A DNA stretch of 15,864 nt from a virus. Of the stretch, positions 7 to 11,901 are shown piece after piece. The notes beneath the pieces were generated by a model that worked only from the letters and a program-made list of their open reading frames with translations, was not told where the DNA came from and did not search any database. Location: the UHGV virus genome UHGV-0248791, one strand, 5' to 3'. Made by a program: the position numbers and the translations under genes. How positions within the stretch are numbered: position 1 is the first letter of the stretch; each line of letters starts with the position of its first letter.

Positions 7-83
7 TGGACCGCCATCGAGGACTCGAACCCCGCGCAACCAGCTTCGAAGGCTGGCGCTCTATCCTGATGAGCTAATGGCGG
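7..83 (-). tRNA. tRNA-Arg (anticodon UCG), phage-borne
   Basis: Reverse complement of 7..83 folds as a 77-nt cloverleaf: acceptor CCGCCAT/ATGGCGG, D-arm GCTC-ATCAGGATA-GAGC, anticodon arm CCAGC-CTTCGAA-GCTGG (anticodon UCG), T-arm CGGGG-TTCGAGT-CCTCG, discriminator T, encoded CCA. Confidence 0.75.
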
Positions 84-90
84 TATGTGA

Positions 91-162
91 TGGTGGCCCT
101 TGCTGGATTTGAACCAGCGACCTGGCGATTATGAGTCGCTCTCACCACTGAGCTAAAGGGCC
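91..162 (-). tRNA. tRNA with CAU anticodon (Ile2/Met type, ileZ-like), with a shortened D-arm
   Basis: Reverse complement of 91..162: acceptor GGCCCTT/AAGGGCC, T-arm GCTGG-TTCAAAT-CCAGC, anticodon loop CTCATAA (CAU), discriminator A, encoded CCA. Only 72 nt because the D-arm is short (3-bp stem, 6-nt loop) and 27:43 is an A-C mismatch, so it may be a degenerate copy. Confidence 0.6.
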
Positions 163-768: not shown

Positions 769-987
769 TAACAGCCGTTAATATAAATTGGCTAATAGAT
801 TTATTTTTATTCAGCCAAGAGCCATGAATAGGATTCGATAGAAAAAAGTTCAGATAAAAATAGAGATCTACTTCACAAATCAAACGAGAAACCAAAACTT
901 ACATCTTGAAATAATCACATTGATTAGATGAATATTTATCGCGCAGTGACATCATTTTTTAATAATAGTTCAAAAAAAGGGCTCACG

Positions 988-2070
988 ATGAAAAAATTAA
1001 CAGTGGCAATTTCTGCTGTAGCTGCATCAGTACTGATGGCGATGTCTGCTCAGGCAGCTGAAATTTATAATAAAGACAGTAACAAGCTGGATCTGTACGG
1101 GAAAGTTAATGCTAAGCACTATTTCTCCTCTAATGATGCAGATGATGGTGATACTACTTATGCCCGTCTTGGCTTCAAAGGTGAAACCCAAATCAACGAT
1201 CAACTGACTGGTTTCGGTCAGTGGGAATATGAATTCAAAGGCAACCGCGCTGAATCTCAAGGTTCCTCCAAAGATAAAACCCGTCTTGCCTTCGCTGGCC
1301 TGAAATTCGGTGACTACGGCTCAATCGATTACGGCCGTAACTACGGTGTAGCATACGACATCGGTGCGTGGACTGACGTTCTGCCAGAATTCGGTGGCGA
1401 TACCTGGACCCAAACAGATGTGTTCATGACTGGTCGCACCACTGGTGTTGCAACTTATCGTAACAACGACTTCTTTGGTCTGGTTGATGGTCTGAACTTT
1501 GCTGCTCAGTATCAGGGTAAAAATGACCGCACTGACGTAACTGAAGCTAATGGTGATGGTTTCGGTTTCTCCACTACTTATGAGTATGAAGGATTCGGTG
1601 TAGGTGCAACCTATGCTAAATCTGACCGCACTAATAATCAGGTTATCTACGGTAACAACAGCCTGAATGCATCTGGTCAAAATGCTGAAGTATGGGCAGC
1701 TGGTCTGAAATATGATGCGAACAACATCTATCTGGCTACCACCTATTCTGAAACCCAGAACATGACTGTTTTTGGTAATAACCATATTGCCAACAAAGCA
1801 CAAAACTTCGAAGTAGTTGCACAATATCAGTTCGACTTCGGTCTGCGTCCGTCCGTTGCTTACCTGCAATCTAAAGGAAAAGACTTGGGTGCGTGGGGTG
1901 ATCAGGACCTGGTTGAATATATTGATGTAGGTGCAACCTATTACTTCAACAAAAATATGTCCACTTTTGTTGATTACAAAATCAACCTGATTGATAAGAG
2001 CGATTTCACGAAAGCATCTGGCGTTGCTACCGATGATATCGTTGCTGTAGGTATGGTTTACCAGTTCTAA
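988..2070 (+). CDS. nmpC: General porin of the OmpC/OmpF/PhoE family (NmpC-type prophage porin), intact
   Basis: Start at ATG 988 ([23 protein letters not shown] signal peptide, then mature N-terminus AEIYNKD typical of enterobacterial porins) with AAAGGG Shine-Dalgarno upstream. Aromatic C-terminal ...VGMVYQF. The ORF-track start at 928 adds 20 codons ahead of the signal peptide and is unlikely. Confidence 0.9.
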
Positions 2071-2258: not shown

Positions 2259-2642
2259 TTAATTAGAGTTATTAACAACGATATCCATCTCTAACCGGAT
2301 ATCTAATGCCATTAACATCCCTTCAATTATGCCCTCAGCCTTCTGTAACCTTTTCCCGATATAACCATCAGAGCAGCAATGCTTACCTGCCAGTGACATG
2401 AATGTCATACCGACTACATAATAATCTACTAATAAATCGTGCAAATCGCTGTTGTTCTTTTTCAGACGGGCCATGCACCCGCAAATAATCATCGCGTCAT
2501 CGTCACAACATTGCGGGCGAGATTTTACTTTTGAAGTAATTAATCCCTTAAAACCGGCGGCAATGGACGACCAGGTCACATCTTCATGATTATTAGCCGC
2601 CCACGCTCCCCAGCGTTCGAGAACCATCTGAATATCACGCAT
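2259..2642 (-). CDS. Late-gene antiterminator Q (phage 21/DLP12 QuuD-like)
   Basis: 127-aa product [22 protein letters not shown]... with Cys-rich zinc-binding segment ([13 protein letters not shown]...HCCSDG). Start taken at ATG 2642 with GGAGA Shine-Dalgarno; the track's longer ORF begins at a TTG. Confidence 0.8.
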
Positions 2643-2659
2643 CAACTTTCTCCACAAAA

Positions 2660-7772: not shown

Positions 7773-7963
7773 GGACGCACCTCCGCCGTAGTTACGTATT
7801 TAACCGGGCTACCTTTCATTGAGATGGTTTCACACATCTCTGCCGCTTTCAGTTCCGCTGTTTTTCTGGATTTATAGCGACGGTGCCAGACAGATACATC
7901 CGTGCGAACTGATACATCGTTTCTGTATTCCGTAGTGGAGATGATGATTTCGTAACTAATCAT
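7769..7963 (-). CDS. Hypothetical protein (64 aa)
   Basis: ATG 7963 with GGAGG Shine-Dalgarno 7 nt upstream; ATGA overlap with the stop of the Rha-family gene. Confidence 0.5.
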   Translation of the reverse strand: MISYEIIISTTEYRNDVSVRTDVSVWHRRYKSRKTAELKAAEMCETISMKGSPVKYVTTAEVRP

Positions 7964-8820
7964 GGGCGAACCTCCTTGTCAGAACCATTCAGCCTGGAAT
8001 CAACAAGTGCAGCGCCAAAAACAGCATCACCAACACGGTCGTACAGTTTGCTAGCCAGCGGAGATTCAACGGCCTTAAGCATTGGATAAAGCTGGCTTGT
8101 CCAGATTTGATGGATTTCACGCAAATGCAGGTATACGCCTCTGGCGTTTCGTGCGACAGCTGACATATCAGACGCATCGGCACCTGATAAACTCTTCTCC
8201 ATCAGGTTAAAGGCGTTGATGTATGCCTCTTTGAACCGGGCAGCACGTTTACCAGTGAAGCCCATGGCAAGAAACGCAAAACCGTCGCGGGTGATTTGGT
8301 AACAAGGGAGCTTGCGTGTACCACCGTTCGGTTGATTTACCGAAATCGATGTCTCCGCAAAATTGCGGGCACAAAACTCAGGGGAACAATCCAGAGTGCG
8401 GATCTTTTTCAGCACATCGTCATGACGCTTGGAGAAGAAGTTGGCAACAGCCAAAGAAGTGGTAACGGCCTGGCCGTTGTCAATGGTGATTTCAGGTTGA
8501 GTGAGGGCTGGGATCGTAGCCATGATGGCAGCCTCCGTTGACAGTGAAAAACTTCCACCACCGGAAACGCCAATTTCACTGGTGGTGAACTGGACGGGGT
8601 TGGCGTAACCGGCGTCAACGGAGACCGGCGCACCTTTCGGTGCCCCCGCCCAGCCCACCATAATCTGGATGTGAGCAAATGCGGACGATAAAAAAGACGC
8701 TGGCGCGTCATACATCGCCGTTGACAATTTCAGGACGCCAATCCCGGCACCCGCTTTATAAGGTGCGGAGACAGTGTAACGTCCCGGAATTGCAGAATCA
8801 ATATGCTGGTGGCGGATCAT
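7960..8820 (-). CDS. Rha-family phage regulatory protein (paralog A); alternative internal start at 8523 would give a 187-aa product
   Basis: Rha-like motifs AVTTSLAVANFFSKRHDDVLKKIRTL...ITRDGFAFLAMGFTGKRAARFKEAYINAFNLME. Two nested starts: ATG 8820 (GGGAGG Shine-Dalgarno, ATGA coupling to the upstream gene) and ATG 8523 (GGAGG Shine-Dalgarno), the latter sitting right at the start of the Rha domain. Confidence 0.6.
   Translation of the reverse strand: MIRHQHIDSAIPGRYTVSAPYKAGAGIGVLKLSTAMYDAPASFLSSAFAHIQIMVGWAGAPKGAPVSVDAGYANPVQFTTSEIGVSGGGSFSLSTEAAIMATIPALTQPEITIDNGQAVTTSLAVANFFSKRHDDVLKKIRTLDCSPEFCARNFAETSISVNQPNGGTRKLPCYQITRDGFAFLAMGFTGKRAARFKEAYINAFNLMEKSLSGADASDMSAVARNARGVYLHLREIHQIWTSQLYPMLKAVESPLASKLYDRVGDAVFGAALVDSRLNGSDKEVRP
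8524..8820 (-). promoter_or_regulatory. Conserved structured leader, copy A (candidate cis-regulatory RNA; may also be translated as an N-terminal extension)
   Basis: Transcript sense: site 1 GTCAACGG (8725..8718), terminator-like GACGC-GCCA-GCGTC plus U6 (8709..8690), hairpin GCACC-GAAA-GGTGC (8643..8630), site 2 CUCCGUUGAC (8623..8614), pseudoknot-type helices ACGCCAA/TTGGCGT interleaved with CACCACC/GGTGGTG (8606..8556), site 3 GUCAACGGAG overlapping the Shine-Dalgarno (8542..8533). Confidence 0.4.
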
Positions 8821-9479
8821 AGGTGCACCTCCCGTTGATTACGACGGAACGCGGAGTGACCCTGGACGGTTTCAGCCTCATGGAATGCTTCAATACAGCT
8901 CTCGTAGTACCGCATTGTGCGCAGACTTAACCCAAGCTGAAGCATCATCAGACCATCAAGGGTGATGTAATAACCACGCAGGGAGTCACCGTAGATGTGA
9001 TAAGTACCCGGTATGAAATTGCGGGTAAAAAACCCGCGTGAGCAGTTCAGATACTCGATTTTGTCAACGATGTTCTGGTGCATGCGCTTGAAATGGCAGG
9101 CAACATGCAGGGAGAAAATAACGGCCTTGCCGTTGACGACTTCGATTTTTAGGAATGGGGAAGTTAGGACAGTAGCCATGATGGCAGCCTCCGTATGCAA
9201 TGGATAACTTCCACCACCGGAGCTGCGAAACTCATGGGTGGTGAACTGAACAGGGTTCGCAGTACCGGCGCATACGGAAACCGGCGAGCCTTTCGGCTCC
9301 CCTGCCCAGCCCACCATAATTCTGGCGTGCGTGAGCGCGGACGATAAAAAAGACGCTGGCGCGTCATATATCGCCGTATGCAATTCCGGGCTGCGACCCC
9401 CGGCACCCGCTTTATAAGGTGCGGAGACAGTGTAACGTCCCGAAATTGCAGAATCAATATTTGGTCTTGAAATGATCAT
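8817..9479 (-). CDS. Rha-family phage regulatory protein (diverged paralog B); alternative internal start at 9179 would give a 120-aa product
   Basis: Degenerate Rha-like region AVIFSLHVACHFKRMHQNIVDKI...ITLDGLMML. ATG 9479 lacks a clear Shine-Dalgarno, whereas internal ATG 9179 has GGAGG 8 nt upstream within a 20-nt block identical to copy A. Confidence 0.5.
   Translation of the reverse strand: MIISRPNIDSAISGRYTVSAPYKAGAGGRSPELHTAIYDAPASFLSSALTHARIMVGWAGEPKGSPVSVCAGTANPVQFTTHEFRSSGGGSYPLHTEAAIMATVLTSPFLKIEVVNGKAVIFSLHVACHFKRMHQNIVDKIEYLNCSRGFFTRNFIPGTYHIYGDSLRGYYITLDGLMMLQLGLSLRTMRYYESCIEAFHEAETVQGHSAFRRNQREVHL
9180..9479 (-). promoter_or_regulatory. Conserved structured leader, copy B (same architecture as copy A with compensatory changes)
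   Basis: Site 1 GCATACGG (9381..9374), identical GACGC-GCCA-GCGTC plus U6, hairpin GAGCC-GAAA-GGCTC (9299..9286), site 2 UUCCGUAUGC (9279..9270), helices CTGCGAA/TTCGCAG interleaved with CACCACC/GGTGGTG, site 3 GCAUACGGAG overlapping the Shine-Dalgarno (9198..9189). Confidence 0.4.
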
Positions 9480-9563: not shown

Positions 9564-9588
9564 AGCCGGGTTACTCCCGGCTTTTTTT
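9564..9588 (+). terminator. Strong rho-independent terminator on the plus strand, antisense to the early-right operon
   Basis: AGCCGGG-TTACT-CCCGGCT 7-bp GC-rich stem (9564-9582) followed by a T-run to 9588. On the minus strand the hairpin is not followed by U, so it is unidirectional for plus-strand transcripts. Confidence 0.55.
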
Positions 9589-10295
9589 CACCGCTGCCAA
9601 CCAATAACCTGAAATAACCCCATTTTCGGGTGATACCAGCGAGTCCCTCGCGGTTCTGCTTCCTCCATAATCCGATAAAAAGCAGCCATAAACGGTTCCA
9701 CAGCAACAATTGCGCGACGTGACAACAATCCGTCCGGCGTCATGAACTCATGGGTGTCTGTAGGAATCTGATAGGCGTTCACCAGATTGCGGCATTTATC
9801 ATCTGACAAACCGGTTTTTGCTTTCAGTTGGCGATATCCGGCATAGCCCTCACGAATAGTGCCCTTTTTAATTTGCTCGACTGTTTCAGCAACGTGGCTG
9901 ACTTTTTCTTCCACCTGAGTGATCCGTTTCTGTTGGCGAACGGCTTCAAGAGCCATCGCGGCAACCATTTCGATTTCGCTCATTGGCTTACGGATCTGTT
10001 CTTCCAGTTCGCGCCAGCGATCTACCAGGCGAGCTGTGAATTCAGGACAGAGCTGTGCGACGACAATGATGCTGTCGCGCTTACCTCGTTCACCTTCGAA
10101 TACATACGCGCTAGAAAATCGGCGAGGCCCAAGTGATTGTTTATTCTCAATTTCCACAGTCTGTGGAAATTGGATGATTCCCTTTTTAGCCAGTGTTTCA
10201 ATAGTTCTCTTAACACTATCTGGTCGGCTTCCCACCAGCTCTGCGATCTCAACGCTGGTCATGGATGCTTTGCCGTTAAAAATTGCGGTGTTCAT
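9588..10295 (-). CDS. Rha/antirepressor-family phage regulatory protein (235 aa)
   Basis: N-terminal MTSVEIAELVGSRPDSVKRTIETLAKKGII...GERGKRDSIIVVAQLCPEFTARLVDRW resembles Rha-family regulators. ATG 10295 has an AGGAGA Shine-Dalgarno 6 nt upstream. Confidence 0.7.
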   Translation of the reverse strand: MNTAIFNGKASMTSVEIAELVGSRPDSVKRTIETLAKKGIIQFPQTVEIENKQSLGPRRFSSAYVFEGERGKRDSIIVVAQLCPEFTARLVDRWRELEEQIRKPMSEIEMVAAMALEAVRQQKRITQVEEKVSHVAETVEQIKKGTIREGYAGYRQLKAKTGLSDDKCRNLVNAYQIPTDTHEFMTPDGLLSRRAIVAVEPFMAAFYRIMEEAEPRGTRWYHPKMGLFQVIGWQR

Positions 10296-10519
10296 TGTTG
10301 GTCTCCTGTGGGCTTGTCATCTTCTGTATTCGCTAGACTTGGGTGTGTATATGGAATGCTCGGATCCAGATGACAAAGAATGGCAACATCCTCCGGAACA
10401 CCTCGCGTTTTCCACTTTCCAACACCTTGACTGCCACGAGGCCTTCCTTTCTTTGGGAACCTGCGACCAATAGCGGCATTGGTTTTAAATTGAATTTTTA
10501 ATATTTCATAAAGGGTCAT
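10292..10519 (-). CDS. Questionable small ORF (75 aa) in the Cro position; no HTH recognisable, may instead be an untranslated leader
   Basis: ATG 10519 is only 17 nt from the operator cluster and has a weak Shine-Dalgarno. The product is basic and low-complexity (GRRFPKKGRPRGSQG). The stop overlaps the downstream ATG (ATGA). Confidence 0.3.
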   Translation of the reverse strand: MTLYEILKIQFKTNAAIGRRFPKKGRPRGSQGVGKWKTRGVPEDVAILCHLDPSIPYTHPSLANTEDDKPTGDQQ

Positions 10520-10536
10520 TCTTTAGTCTCACGCCA

Positions 10537-10608
10537 GATACTTTGTTATCCAACGATGTTAACCATAGGAACCCAAAGTATCAAGAAATTCTGTTACTTT
10601 AGTATCAA
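10537..10608. promoter_or_regulatory. OR-type operator cluster with divergent PRM/PR promoters between cI and the early-right operon
   Basis: Three copies of an AAGTATC core: GATACTTTG (10537-10545, inverted), AAAGTATCAA (10575-10584), TTAGTATCAA (10599-10608). On the minus strand the motif reads TTGATAC, which overlaps a -35-like hexamer (TTGATA, 17 nt, TAACAT). Confidence 0.5.
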
Positions 10609-10630
10609 CAGCCATGAGAGGAGAAGAAAA

Positions 10631-11287
10631 ATGAAGTCTTTAGGTGAACGTCTCATCAACGCACGGCAAAAAGCTGGGTTAACACAAGATGCGTTGGCTA
10701 AAAAAGCTGGGGTCACCAGAGTTGCAATAAGTAAAGCCGAGCAAGGCCTTACAAAAAGTTTCAACGGTGACACCCTTTTTAAAGTTGCAGCTGCACTGCG
10801 GTGTTCACCGCAGTGGCTTCAGAACGGAGATGAAAAAGATAAGCATTGGGAAAATAATGTTAAGAGCTGCCCACAGAGAGACACAGCACACTCTTACCCT
10901 GTAATTAACTGGGTTCAGGCAGGATTATTCGCAACTTCTGGTGATGACTACAACATGTATGATCAGGATAATTGGAGGCATTCTGTAAAATACGCTGGTG
11001 AGAGGGGGTTCTGGCTGGAAGTGCACGGAGACTCAATGACTTCGCCCGTAGGAATAACATTTCCTGAAGGAATGTCGATCCTTGTCAACCCAGATAAAGA
11101 AGTTTTTTCAGGGTGTTACGTCATCGCCAGAAAAAAATCCACCAATGAAGCAACATTCAAAAAATATATTTCTGACATGGGAAAGGCGTTTCTAAAGCCC
11201 CTTAATCCACAATATCCAATCATAGAAATGGACAATGATTGCGAAATAGTAGGTGTTGTGGTTGATGCCAGATGGGATATTTTCTGA
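10631..11287 (+). CDS. CI-type prophage repressor (N-terminal HTH, C-terminal LexA-like S24 peptidase domain)
   Basis: HTH LTQDALAKKAGVTRVAISKAEQG; S24 motifs GDSMTSP (Ser) and a downstream Lys; candidate Ala-Gly cleavage site in WVQAGLF. Start ATG 10631 with AGAGGAGAAG Shine-Dalgarno; the track's longer ORF lacks one. Confidence 0.85.
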   Translation: MKSLGERLINARQKAGLTQDALAKKAGVTRVAISKAEQGLTKSFNGDTLFKVAAALRCSPQWLQNGDEKDKHWENNVKSCPQRDTAHSYPVINWVQAGLFATSGDDYNMYDQDNWRHSVKYAGERGFWLEVHGDSMTSPVGITFPEGMSILVNPDKEVFSGCYVIARKKSTNEATFKKYISDMGKAFLKPLNPQYPIIEMDNDCEIVGVVVDARWDIF

Positions 11288-11320
11288 CCAGACACAAAAC
11301 ACAAAACACAAAAAGAAACC

Positions 11321-11393
11321 AAAGTATCAAAAATCACTTGCCACGCCTTGATACCTTAGTTACCATAAAACAAAGTTCGTAACTGAGGTATCA
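11321..11393. promoter_or_regulatory. OL/PL-type operator and promoter region downstream of cI
   Basis: The same 10-mer as in OR, AAAGTATCAA (11321-11330), plus the inverted copy TTGATACCTT (11348-11357) and AGGTATCA (11385-11392). Precedes the first plus-strand early-left gene. Confidence 0.4.
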
Positions 11394-11397
11394 TCTC

Positions 11398-11901
11398 ATG
11401 ATCAATAAAGCTACAACTCTTGACTGTCTCGAAGAACTGAAAAACCTCGGCAGCCTCATTACACTAATAGCAAAAGCAACACCTGATGCTACGCTCTCTA
11501 GCGATATAGAGTCATGCGCAGGACTGGCATGGGATATGACAAATAGCATATCCAGAAAGCTATCGTCAGCAATGCTTTTACAGAACAAAAATTCTGCAAT
11601 CAACAACCGTCTTCGCACCCAACGCGAAGCCTGCGGCTTAACAACCGCCGAACTCGCCAGGCTGCTCGATCTCGATGAAGAAATCATCATTCAGTGGGAG
11701 AGCGGAGAGTATGAACCAACCATCAGTATGCTTATCCCACTGGCAAATATTCTTGGCTGCGATCCGATGTGGCTGTTAACTGGCGAGGTTACTCCTCCGG
11801 AGCAACCAAAAAGTGAGGAGCAGCAACACCATGACGCATCTCAACAAGTTTGCCCCTTATCTCGCGAAGCTCTTCTGCGGAAGAACCAATACCAATGGTG
11901 A
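11398..11901 (+). CDS. HTH (XRE-family) DNA-binding protein, first gene of the early-left operon; not N-like
   Basis: HTH in the C-terminal half (LTTAELARLLDLDEEIIIQWESGEYEPTISMLIPLANILGCDPMWLLTG). No arginine-rich N-terminal motif. ATG 11398 with GAGG upstream. Confidence 0.55.
   Translation: MINKATTLDCLEELKNLGSLITLIAKATPDATLSSDIESCAGLAWDMTNSISRKLSSAMLLQNKNSAINNRLRTQREACGLTTAELARLLDLDEEIIIQWESGEYEPTISMLIPLANILGCDPMWLLTGEVTPPEQPKSEEQQHHDASQQVCPLSREALLRKNQYQW

What the first reader, a model, noticed from the sequence alone, without database searches (positions are those of the whole stretch)
10520..11397. Repressor operators share an AAAGTATCAA-type motif present in both OR and OL; the motif overlaps the early promoter -35
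The 10-mer AAAGTATCAA occurs at 10575-10584 (OR) and identically at 11321-11330 (OL), with related copies GATACTTTG (inverted, 10537-10545), TTAGTATCAA (10599-10608), TTGATACCTT (inverted, 11348-11357) and AGGTATCA (11385-11392). In the opposite orientation it reads TTGATAC, which is a -35-like hexamer, so repressor binding would occlude the early promoters. This defines the likely immunity specificity of the prophage. A CACAAAA x3 tandem repeat lies just after cI (11291-11312).
Basis: seen in the sequence. Interest (0 to 1): 0.4.

Follow-up and report, generated by a model that had tools for sequence, protein, structure and literature searches.

The report
Prophage repressor operators, three per side
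The repeated motif is real and marks six imperfect 14-bp palindromes (GATAC-N4-GTATC type), three on each side of the repressor gene of a phiP27-like E. coli prophage; this is an ordinary lambda-style immunity switch whose operator sequence I could not find described in the papers I could reach.

Summary
Observation confirmed. AAAGTATCAA occurs exactly twice (0.03 expected), and all four related copies exist within 1 nt of the stated coordinates.

The 10-mer is not the unit. Each copy is the strong half plus spacer of a 14-bp dyad, consensus (TT)GATAC-YTWR-GTWWC. There are six sites:
- O1-O3: 10537-10550, 10569-10582, 10593-10606, between a Cro-fold gene (-) and cI (+).
- O4-O6: 11315-11328, 11350-11363, 11379-11392, between cI and the next + strand gene.

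The window is a phiP27-like lambdoid prophage of E. coli.

Main evidence:
- Six of 33 GATAC pentamers fall in 1.4% of the window.
- Only an N4 spacer gives the dyad.
- Among 48 sequence variants, 26% of site columns vary against 73% of other intergenic columns.
- Site positions are kept where flanks diverged.
- Relatives with about 50% identical cI carry TAAAC-N4-GTTTA or GAAAC-N4-GTTTC at the same places, and their CI and Cro recognition helices differ too.

The -35 overlap holds for the cro-side promoter (TTGATA in O2). On the other side the best promoter is TTGCCA/TACCAT, and O5 covers its spacer and -10.

No binding data exist, so promoters, site order and cooperativity are inferred. This is a new member of a textbook kind, of low interest.

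The parts
10537..10550 (.). O1: GATACTTTGTTATC, an operator-like dyad. It covers the predicted start of the cro-side (PR-like) transcript.
   Evidence: It sits at -94 from the cI start in the window, L069 and the Stx phages. In an Stx2a phage it is the perfect palindrome GATACTTAAGTATC.
10569..10582 (.). O2: GAACCCAAAGTATC (reverse complement GATACTTTGGGTTC). It overlaps the -35 TTGATA and the spacer of the PR-like promoter.
   Evidence: It sits at -62 from the cI start in relatives. The strong half is invariant across variants.
10593..10606 (.). O3: GTTACTTTAGTATC. It overlaps the only -10-like hexamer (TAGTAT, 10600-10605) upstream of cI, so it is a candidate site for autoregulation of the cI promoter.
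   Evidence: at -38 from the cI start. The promoter assignment comes from my reading of the sequence and is weak.
11315..11328 (.). O4: GAAACCAAAGTATC (reverse complement GATACTTTGGTTTC), upstream of the PL-like -35.
   Evidence: In L069 it is the perfect core palindrome GATACTTTAGTATC.
11350..11363 (.). O5: GATACCTTAGTTAC. It covers the spacer and the first three bases of the -10 of the PL-like promoter.
   Evidence: It is almost invariant among 48 variants.
11379..11392 (.). O6: GTAACTGAGGTATC (reverse complement GATACCTCAGTTAC). It lies just downstream of the predicted PL-like start and contains the GAGG ribosome-binding site (11385-11388) of the 167-aa gene. It is an inverted copy of O5.
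   Evidence: (I4).
10556..10584 (-). Predicted PR-like sigma-70 promoter for the cro-like operon: TTGATA (10584-10579), 17 nt, TAACAT (10561-10556).
   Evidence: 9 of 12 matches. TTGATA and TAACAT are kept in the Stx phages. This is a consensus match only; no transcript start is known.
11338..11366 (+). Predicted PL-like sigma-70 promoter for the operon downstream of cI: TTGCCA (11338-11343), 17 nt, TACCAT (11361-11366).
   Evidence: 9 of 12 matches. It is kept in L069 as TTGCCC / 17 nt / TACCAT although the flanks have diverged. This is a consensus match only.
10631..11287 (+). cI-type repressor gene, 218 aa. It has an N-terminal HTH_3 domain and a C-terminal S24 autopeptidase domain, with Ala97-Gly98, Ser135 and Lys177/178 aligned to the lambda cI cleavage site and catalytic residues.
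   Evidence: lambda repressor 3bdn, E 9e-34; phrog_4. The upstream in-frame ATG at 10556 is rejected because the extension is out of frame in the Stx1a phage, which has a 1-nt deletion.
10292..10519 (-). Divergently transcribed 75-aa gene, homologue of phiP27 L12. It is predicted to be an all-alpha Cro-type HTH protein.
11398..11901 (+). First gene of the PL-like operon: 167 aa with a C-terminal HTH_3 domain (DicA-like or CII-like by profile). It sits where lambda has N.
   Evidence: (phrog_4739 and phrog_4836).
11292..11313 (+). ACACAAA x3 tandem repeat just after the cI stop codon. Its copy number varies and it probably has no function.
   Evidence: Relatives carry 1-3 copies. It lies in the most variable stretch of the region.

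Best explanation
The motif marks the operators of a lambda-type lysis/lysogeny switch in a phiP27-like prophage of E. coli. Six imperfect palindromes of the type (TT)GATAC-N4-GTWWC flank the repressor gene. Three lie in the 111-bp cro-cI intergenic region (OR-like) and three in the 110 bp between cI and the next early operon (OL-like).

Inferred mechanism:
- Dimers of the 218-aa CI bind the sites through the N-terminal helix-turn-helix, with recognition helix VTRVAISKAEQG. Each dimer reads one invariant GATAC half and one weaker half.
- Occupancy of O1 and O2 blocks the leftward-reading promoter TTGATA/TAACAT, which drives cro, the Rha/Ant-like genes and the replication genes.
- Occupancy of O5 and O6 blocks TTGCCA/TACCAT, which drives the 167-aa HTH gene and the genes beyond it.
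- O3 overlaps the likely -10 of the cI promoter and would give negative autoregulation.
- DNA damage would inactivate CI by RecA-stimulated self-cleavage at Ala97-Gly98, using the Ser135/Lys dyad.
- The 75-aa Cro-fold protein probably binds the same sites to shut off cI.

Shown here: the sites exist, they are dyads with an N4 spacer, they are clustered, they are conserved above their surroundings, and they change together with the CI and Cro recognition helices in related phages. Inferred: who binds them, the promoters and transcript starts, the order of affinities, cooperativity and any OL-OR looping.
For: Context:
- The region is 95% identical to phiP27 L10-L14, and the phiP27 cI homologue is annotated 'putative lambda repressor'.
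- The prophage sits at yecE, as phiP27 does.
- CI has HTH_3 and Peptidase_S24 domains. Its C-terminal domain aligns with lambda cI at E 9e-34, with the cleavage and catalytic residues kept.
- The divergent 75-aa protein has a Cro fold.

Sites:
- The exact 10-mer occurs twice against 0.03 expected.
- Six of 33 GATAC pentamers fall in 1.4% of the window, P = 6e-6.
- The partner half at N4 matches GTATC at 21 of 30 positions for these six, against a mean of 1.33 of 5 per site for the other 27 GATACs (P = 2e-4). No other spacer gives more than 11 of 30.

Conservation:
- Among 48 distinct variants, 26% of site columns vary against 73% of other intergenic columns (Fisher 8e-12).
- GATAC is invariant in 49 of 50 distinct site instances.
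- In L069 (cI 86% identical, flanks diverged) all six sites persist, and the OR sites are at -94, -62 and -38 as in the window.

Covariation:
- Relatives with about 50% identical cI and about 70% identical cro carry TAAAC-N4-GTTTA (Serratia, L071/L084) or GAAAC-N4-GTTTC (L188, L189) at equivalent positions.
- Their CI helices differ (VSRMAISKIEMG, VSRVTISKIELG) and so do the Cro helix residues.
- L071 has no homologue of the 167-aa HTH protein but still has the sites.

Promoters overlap the sites.

All 195 of 5,426 complete E. coli genomes that carry the region have exactly one copy. This is weakly consistent with superinfection immunity.
Against: - No binding, footprinting or transcript-start data exist for this repressor in anything I could read. 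The 2002 phiP27 genome paper is not held.
- The promoters are 9-of-12 consensus matches.
- The cI promoter is poorly defined. Its candidate -10 TAGTAT is TGGTAT or TTGTAT in the Stx phages.
- The conservation statistics use related sequences, so the P values are only indicative.
- The covariation cannot separate CI from Cro as the binder, because both change together.
- The single copy per genome could also reflect competition for one attachment site.
Confidence: 0.87

Rival explanations
1. The sites are operators, but CI does not bind them. They would be recognised only by the Cro-fold protein, or by the 167-aa HTH protein encoded next to the OL-like region.
For: Three HTH proteins are encoded around the sites. 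The Cro recognition-helix residues also covary with the site sequence, so the comparative data alone do not single out CI.
Against: The Serratia relative L071 lacks any homologue of the 167-aa protein yet has dyads at the same places. In every characterised lambdoid switch CI and Cro share the same sites (established knowledge; restated in PMC6649833). A CI with no operators next to its own gene would leave immunity unexplained.
Confidence: 0.06
2. The repeats are promoter elements rather than protein-binding sites: repeated -35-like TTGATA hexamers, or remnants of a duplication between the two intergenic regions.
For: TTGATA is a good -35 and coincides with one predicted promoter. O2 and O4 share a 26-nt stretch at 81% identity (D1).
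Against: Only one of the six copies has a -10 at a workable spacing. The copies point in both directions. Each has a partner half at exactly N4, which promoters do not need. In relatives the sites change sequence while keeping position and dyad form.
Confidence: 0.03
3. The pattern is chance similarity in AT-rich intergenic DNA and has no function.
For: The 10-mer with up to 2 mismatches is not enriched over the whole window (24 found, 16.9 expected).
Against: The exact 10-mer, the pentamer clustering, the N4 dyad, the conservation and the covariation all argue against chance.
Confidence: 0.01

Closest known systems
Phage lambda OR/OL with CI and Cro
   Same: The layout is the same: cro, a tripartite operator, cI, a second tripartite operator, then the second early operon. 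Sites are imperfect palindromes with a consensus half and a weaker half, and they overlap the early promoters. The CI C-terminal S24 domain is homologous to that of lambda (E 9e-34), with the Ala-Gly, Ser and Lys residues kept.
   Different: - The N-terminal DNA-binding domain is the HTH_3 (434/P22) type and is not detectably like lambda's.
- The sites have a 14-bp core with the symmetry axis between base pairs, not lambda's 17 bp with a central base pair.
- Centre-to-centre spacings are 32 and 24 bp in OR and 35 and 29 bp in OL.
- No rexAB genes and no predicted terminator lie between cI and OL, so OR and OL are only about 780 bp apart.
- The first gene of the PL-side operon is an HTH protein rather than N. 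PMC3430580 found no N, cII or cIII in phiP27.
- Cro has the all-alpha fold.
P22 c2 and 434 repressor operators
   Same: The DNA-binding domain family is the same (P22 c2 N-terminal domain E 1e-8, 434 Cro E 7e-9). The operators have even length, like the 14-bp 434 operator. More distant relatives in the same search (L072-L078, 46% identical cI) carry P22-like ATTTAAGA...TCTTAA sites.
   Different: The half-site sequence (GATAC) and the recognition helix (VTRVAISKAEQG) differ from both. The C-terminal domain is closer to that of lambda.
Phage phiP27 (Stx2e) immunity region, L10-L12, and the Stx1a/Stx2a phages integrated at yecE
   Same: This is the same immunity region. It is 95% identical to phiP27 and about 85% identical to the Stx1a and Stx2a phages. 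All six sites are present in them.
   Different: This prophage carries no stx in the window. Beyond the Q-like gene lie a porin gene and tRNA genes. I found no description of these operators in the literature I could read.
933W and H-19B operator regions
   Same: These are Stx-phage early regulatory regions with several CI operators that overlap PR and PL (review PMC8065619).
   Different: According to that review, 933W has 3 OR and 2 OL sites and H-19B has 4 OR sites. Here there are 3 and 3. The sequences and repressors are unrelated in their N-terminal domains.

Membership tests
Lambdoid CI/Cro immunity switch | Repressor with an N-terminal HTH domain and a C-terminal LexA-like (S24) self-cleaving domain that has the Ala-Gly site and the Ser/Lys dyad | tested here: met
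   Pfam HTH_3 and Peptidase_S24. Alignment to lambda cI 3bdn at E 9e-34 with VQAG, GDSMT and FKK motifs aligned.
Lambdoid CI/Cro immunity switch | Small Cro-type DNA-binding protein transcribed divergently from cI | tested here: met
Lambdoid CI/Cro immunity switch | Three imperfectly palindromic sites in the cI-cro intergenic region | tested here: met
   O1-O3 at 10537-10606. The dyad with an N4 spacer is shown, and conservation.
Lambdoid CI/Cro immunity switch | A second operator cluster controlling the other early operon (OL/PL) | tested here: met
   O4-O6 at 11315-11392 around a predicted promoter. The operon it controls starts with an HTH gene, not N.
Lambdoid CI/Cro immunity switch | Operators overlap the early promoters | tested here: inconclusive
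   Two consensus matches of 9 of 12 overlap O1/O2 and O5/O6, and their hexamers are conserved. No transcript starts are known.
Lambdoid CI/Cro immunity switch | Operator sequence covaries with the recognition helices across immunity types | tested here: met
   GATAC, TAAAC and GAAAC half-sites go with three different CI and Cro helices at equivalent positions.
Lambdoid CI/Cro immunity switch | Direct, specific binding of CI and Cro to the sites; cooperative binding; OL-OR looping | not testable with these tools
   This needs EMSA, footprinting or ChIP.
LexA (SOS) box | CTGT-N8-ACAG in the regulatory region | tested here: not met
   No match with up to 1 mismatch lies in 10520-10630 or 11288-11397. 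The whole window has 4 matches against 5.1 expected.

The most novel reading that the evidence does not exclude
O5 and O6 are inverted copies of each other. As RNA they form a perfect 14-bp stem whose 3' arm contains the ribosome-binding site of the 167-aa HTH gene. The predicted PL-like transcript starts inside the loop and so lacks the 5' arm. No terminator is predicted after cI, so a read-through cI transcript would carry both arms.

The pair could therefore act both as protein operators and as an RNA gate. The downstream gene would be translated only from its own promoter after induction, and not from the lysogenic cI message.
Probability: 0.08. Interest if true: 0.45.

Novelty: new member of a known kind. 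Interest (0 to 1): 0.2.

Why it matters
It gives a testable operator definition, (TT)GATAC-N4-GTWWC at six mapped sites, for the immunity type shared by phiP27 (Stx2e), several Stx1a- and Stx2a-converting phages and prophages in about 3.6% of complete E. coli genomes. This helps predict which Stx phages are homoimmune and helps in designing reporters for induction.

The three closely related immunity types (GATAC, TAAAC and GAAAC half-sites with small changes in the CI and Cro recognition helices) form a small natural series for studying how repressor specificity shifts. Beyond that it confirms textbook biology.

Tried and rejected
- The 10-mer with up to 2 mismatches over the whole window is not enriched (24 found, 16.9 expected). 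The signal is in clustering and dyad structure.
- The LexA box is absent from the region.
- The longer 243-aa cI ORF starting at ATG 10556 is rejected. The extension is out of frame in the Stx1a phage and runs across the operators. ATG 10631 has a GGAG ribosome-binding site.
- TTGATA at 11348 as a -35 has no -10 at 16-18 nt (my reading of the sequence). The scan instead gives TTGCCA/TACCAT.
- The genome-contig scan with cI found no close relative, only the 51% identical Serratia homologue and more distant ones.
- In the literature, the phiP27 genome paper is not held. Two reviews and comparative papers mention phiP27 but not its operators. A 2025 Stx2e paper has nothing on operators.
- Wobble-compatible changes in the O5/O6 stem were seen in 3 of 4 variants (read). 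That is too few to count as covariation.

Full report
**What is in the sequence**

The 10-mer AAAGTATCAA occurs exactly twice in the window, at 10575-10584 and 11321-11330. Shuffles give 0.03 expected, and none of 200 reaches two matches. The heptamer repeat after cI is real: ACACAAA x3.1 at 11292-11313. Allowing two mismatches, the 10-mer is not enriched over the whole window (24 found, 16.9 expected). So the evidence is the clustering of copies, not the loose motif.

**What the unit really is**

Each copy is one half plus the spacer of a 14-bp imperfect palindrome.

| Site | Coordinates | Sequence, GATAC half first |
|---|---|---|
| O1 | 10537-10550 | GATACTTTGTTATC |
| O2 | 10569-10582 | GATACTTTGGGTTC |
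| O3 | 10593-10606 | GATACTAAAGTAAC |
| O4 | 11315-11328 | GATACTTTGGTTTC |
| O5 | 11350-11363 | GATACCTTAGTTAC |
| O6 | 11379-11392 | GATACCTCAGTTAC |

(Sequences.)

- The neutral pattern GATAC-N4-GTATC with up to two mismatches hits 12 times against 4.6 expected. Six of the hits lie in the 221 nt of the two intergenic regions.
- Six of the 33 GATAC/GTATC pentamers in the window lie in that 1.4% of it (binomial P = 6e-6).
- For those six, the partner pentamer at a 4-nt spacer matches GTATC at 21 of 30 positions. The other 27 GATACs average 1.33 of 5 (P = 2e-4). No other spacer from 0 to 8 gives more than 11 of 30.
- Over 50 distinct site instances from relatives, GATAC is invariant apart from one T-to-C change. 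The base 5' of it is T in 42 of 50 instances. The weak half reads G-T-W-W-C.
- The consensus is therefore (T)TGATAC-YTWR-GTWWC, with one strong and one weak half as in lambda operators.

**Genomic context**

- The region is 95% identical to phage phiP27 genes L10-L14 and about 85% identical to several Stx1a- and Stx2a-converting phages. It has the phiP27 gene order.
- The nearest complete genome, E. coli O111:H21 strain 15A at 99.2%, has the prophage at yecE, next to yecN and cmoA.
- The gene at 10631-11287 (+) encodes a 218-aa repressor with HTH_3 and Peptidase_S24 domains.
- Its C-terminal domain aligns with lambda cI (3bdn, E 9e-34), with the Ala-Gly cleavage site (A97-G98), Ser135 and the Lys of the dyad in place. 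Its N-terminal domain resembles P22 c2 and 434 Cro, not lambda.
- Downstream of cI on the same strand is a 167-aa protein with a C-terminal HTH_3 domain. It sits where lambda has N. The same paper reports no N, cII or cIII in phiP27.
- The topology is therefore cro, then OR, then cI, then OL, then the second early operon, as in lambda.

**Promoters**

These are consensus predictions only.
- On the - strand: TTGATA (10584-10579), 17 nt, TAACAT (10561-10556). O2 covers the -35 and spacer, and O1 covers the predicted start.
- On the + strand: TTGCCA (11338-11343), 17 nt, TACCAT (11361-11366). O5 covers the spacer and the start of the -10, and O6 lies just downstream.
- Both hexamer pairs persist in relatives, including L069, where the surrounding sequence has diverged.
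TTGATA at 11348 has no -10 at a usable distance.
- For cI itself, the only -10-like hexamer is TAGTAT (10600-10605) inside O3, with a poor -35. This would fit an activated, autoregulated promoter like lambda PRM. However, the hexamer is TGGTAT or TTGTAT in the Stx phages, so this is the weakest part of the picture.

**Comparative evidence that the sites are functional**

- From 229 cI relatives in viral contigs plus the annotated phages, I aligned 48 distinct versions of the region. Columns inside the six 14-mers vary in 26% of cases. Other intergenic columns vary in 73% and flanking coding columns in 31% (Fisher 8e-12; the sequences are related, so this is indicative only).
- In L069 (cI 86% identical, same recognition helix) the intergenic DNA has diverged. 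Even so, six sites remain, and the OR sites are at -94, -62 and -38 from the cI start, as in the window. O4 is there the perfect core GATACTTTAGTATC.
- In one Stx2a phage O1 is the perfect palindrome GATACTTAAGTATC.

**Covariation with the proteins**

| Group | CI recognition helix | Cro helix residues | Dyad at equivalent positions |
|---|---|---|---|
| Window group | VTRVAISKAEQG | GSQG | GATAC-N4-GTATC |
| Serratia (L071/L084; cI 51%, Cro 69%) | VSRMAISKIEMG | SPQA | TAAAC-N4-GTTTA, two perfect copies |
| L188/L189 (cI about 49%, Cro 69-75%) | VSRVTISKIELG | SGQA / TGQA | GAAAC-N4-GTTTC |

(From.)

- More distant cI relatives (46% identical) carry P22-like sites.
- L071 lacks a homologue of the 167-aa HTH protein but keeps the sites. 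This argues against that protein being the binder.
- CI and Cro change together, so the data cannot say which of them reads the sites. By analogy with all studied lambdoid switches, both do (PMC6649833).

**Other observations bearing on the reading**

- All 195 of 5,426 complete E. coli genomes that hold the region hold it once. This fits superinfection immunity, but competition for one attachment site would explain it as well.
- There is no LexA box in the region.

**Mechanism and confidence**

I put 0.87 on the statement that these six dyads are the CI operators (shared with Cro) of a lambda-type switch, with SOS induction through CI self-cleavage. The existence, symmetry, clustering, conservation and covariation of the sites are shown. 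Binding, promoter positions, site hierarchy, cooperativity and looping between clusters only about 780 bp apart are inferred.

Rivals:
- Another HTH protein binds instead of CI: 0.06.
- The repeats are promoter elements or duplication relics: 0.03.
- Chance: 0.01.

**Novelty**

This is a new member of a textbook kind. I found no description of the operators of this immunity type in the papers I could read. The 2002 phiP27 genome paper is not held, so I cannot exclude that it noted them. Interest is low (0.2).

The most novel reading not excluded concerns O5 and O6.
- They are inverted copies that would form a perfect 14-bp RNA stem (-24.7 kcal/mol for the region, z = -3.3) containing the ribosome-binding site of the downstream gene.
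- Only a read-through transcript from cI would carry both arms, and no terminator is predicted after cI. More distant relatives have an obvious terminator there.
- This could gate translation by transcript origin, but it may simply be a by-product of two like operators in inverted orientation (probability about 0.08).

Noticed in passing
window 11349-11393: O5 and O6 form a 15-nt inverted repeat that is 93% complementary as DNA and a perfect 14-bp stem with one G-U as RNA, with a 15-nt loop. The 3' arm holds the GAGG ribosome-binding site (11385-11388) of the 167-aa gene. The predicted PL-like start (about 11373) lies in the loop.
   Followed up: partly
window 11288-11397; loci L071-L078 downstream of cI: No intrinsic terminator is predicted between the cI stop codon and the next gene, so cI transcripts may read into the PL-side operon. 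Relatives with 46-51% identical cI have a clear GC hairpin plus T run right after cI.
   Followed up: partly
window 8578-8665, 9234-9321 (C4) and 8690-8766, 9346-9422 (isrK), all - strand: Two tandem modules match Rfam C4 antisense RNA (81-83 bits) and isrK (59-62 bits). They lie inside the 5' parts of the two Ash/Rha-domain ORFs (7960-8820 and 8817-9479, -). This looks like a P1 immI-type antisense control of antirepressor-like genes downstream of the cro-side promoter. The 'Ash' protein domain overlaps the RNA genes.
   Followed up: no
window 928-2070 (+), 2259-2657 (-), 7-162 (-): An OmpC/NmpC-type porin gene (Porin_1, E 4e-153) and two tRNA genes (Arg-TCG, and Met-CAT by ARAGORN) lie beyond the Q-like antiterminator gene. 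This is where phiP27 and the Stx phages carry stx.
   Followed up: no
window 11292-11313: The ACACAAA repeat has 1 to 3 copies among otherwise near-identical prophages. This looks like slippage in a non-essential spacer.
   Followed up: yes
loci L071/L084, L188, L189: There are at least three related immunity types whose half-sites differ at positions 1 and 3 only (GATAC, TAAAC, GAAAC). O3 of the Serratia phage is a hybrid, GATACTTTAGTTTA.
   Followed up: partly
window 9588-10295 (-); phiP27 locus L001 6166-6837: phiP27 and E. coli strain 15A have an extra + strand ORF inserted between the cro-like gene and the Rha/Ant-like gene. In this window the two genes overlap by 4 nt. This is mosaic variation just downstream of cro.
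   Followed up: no
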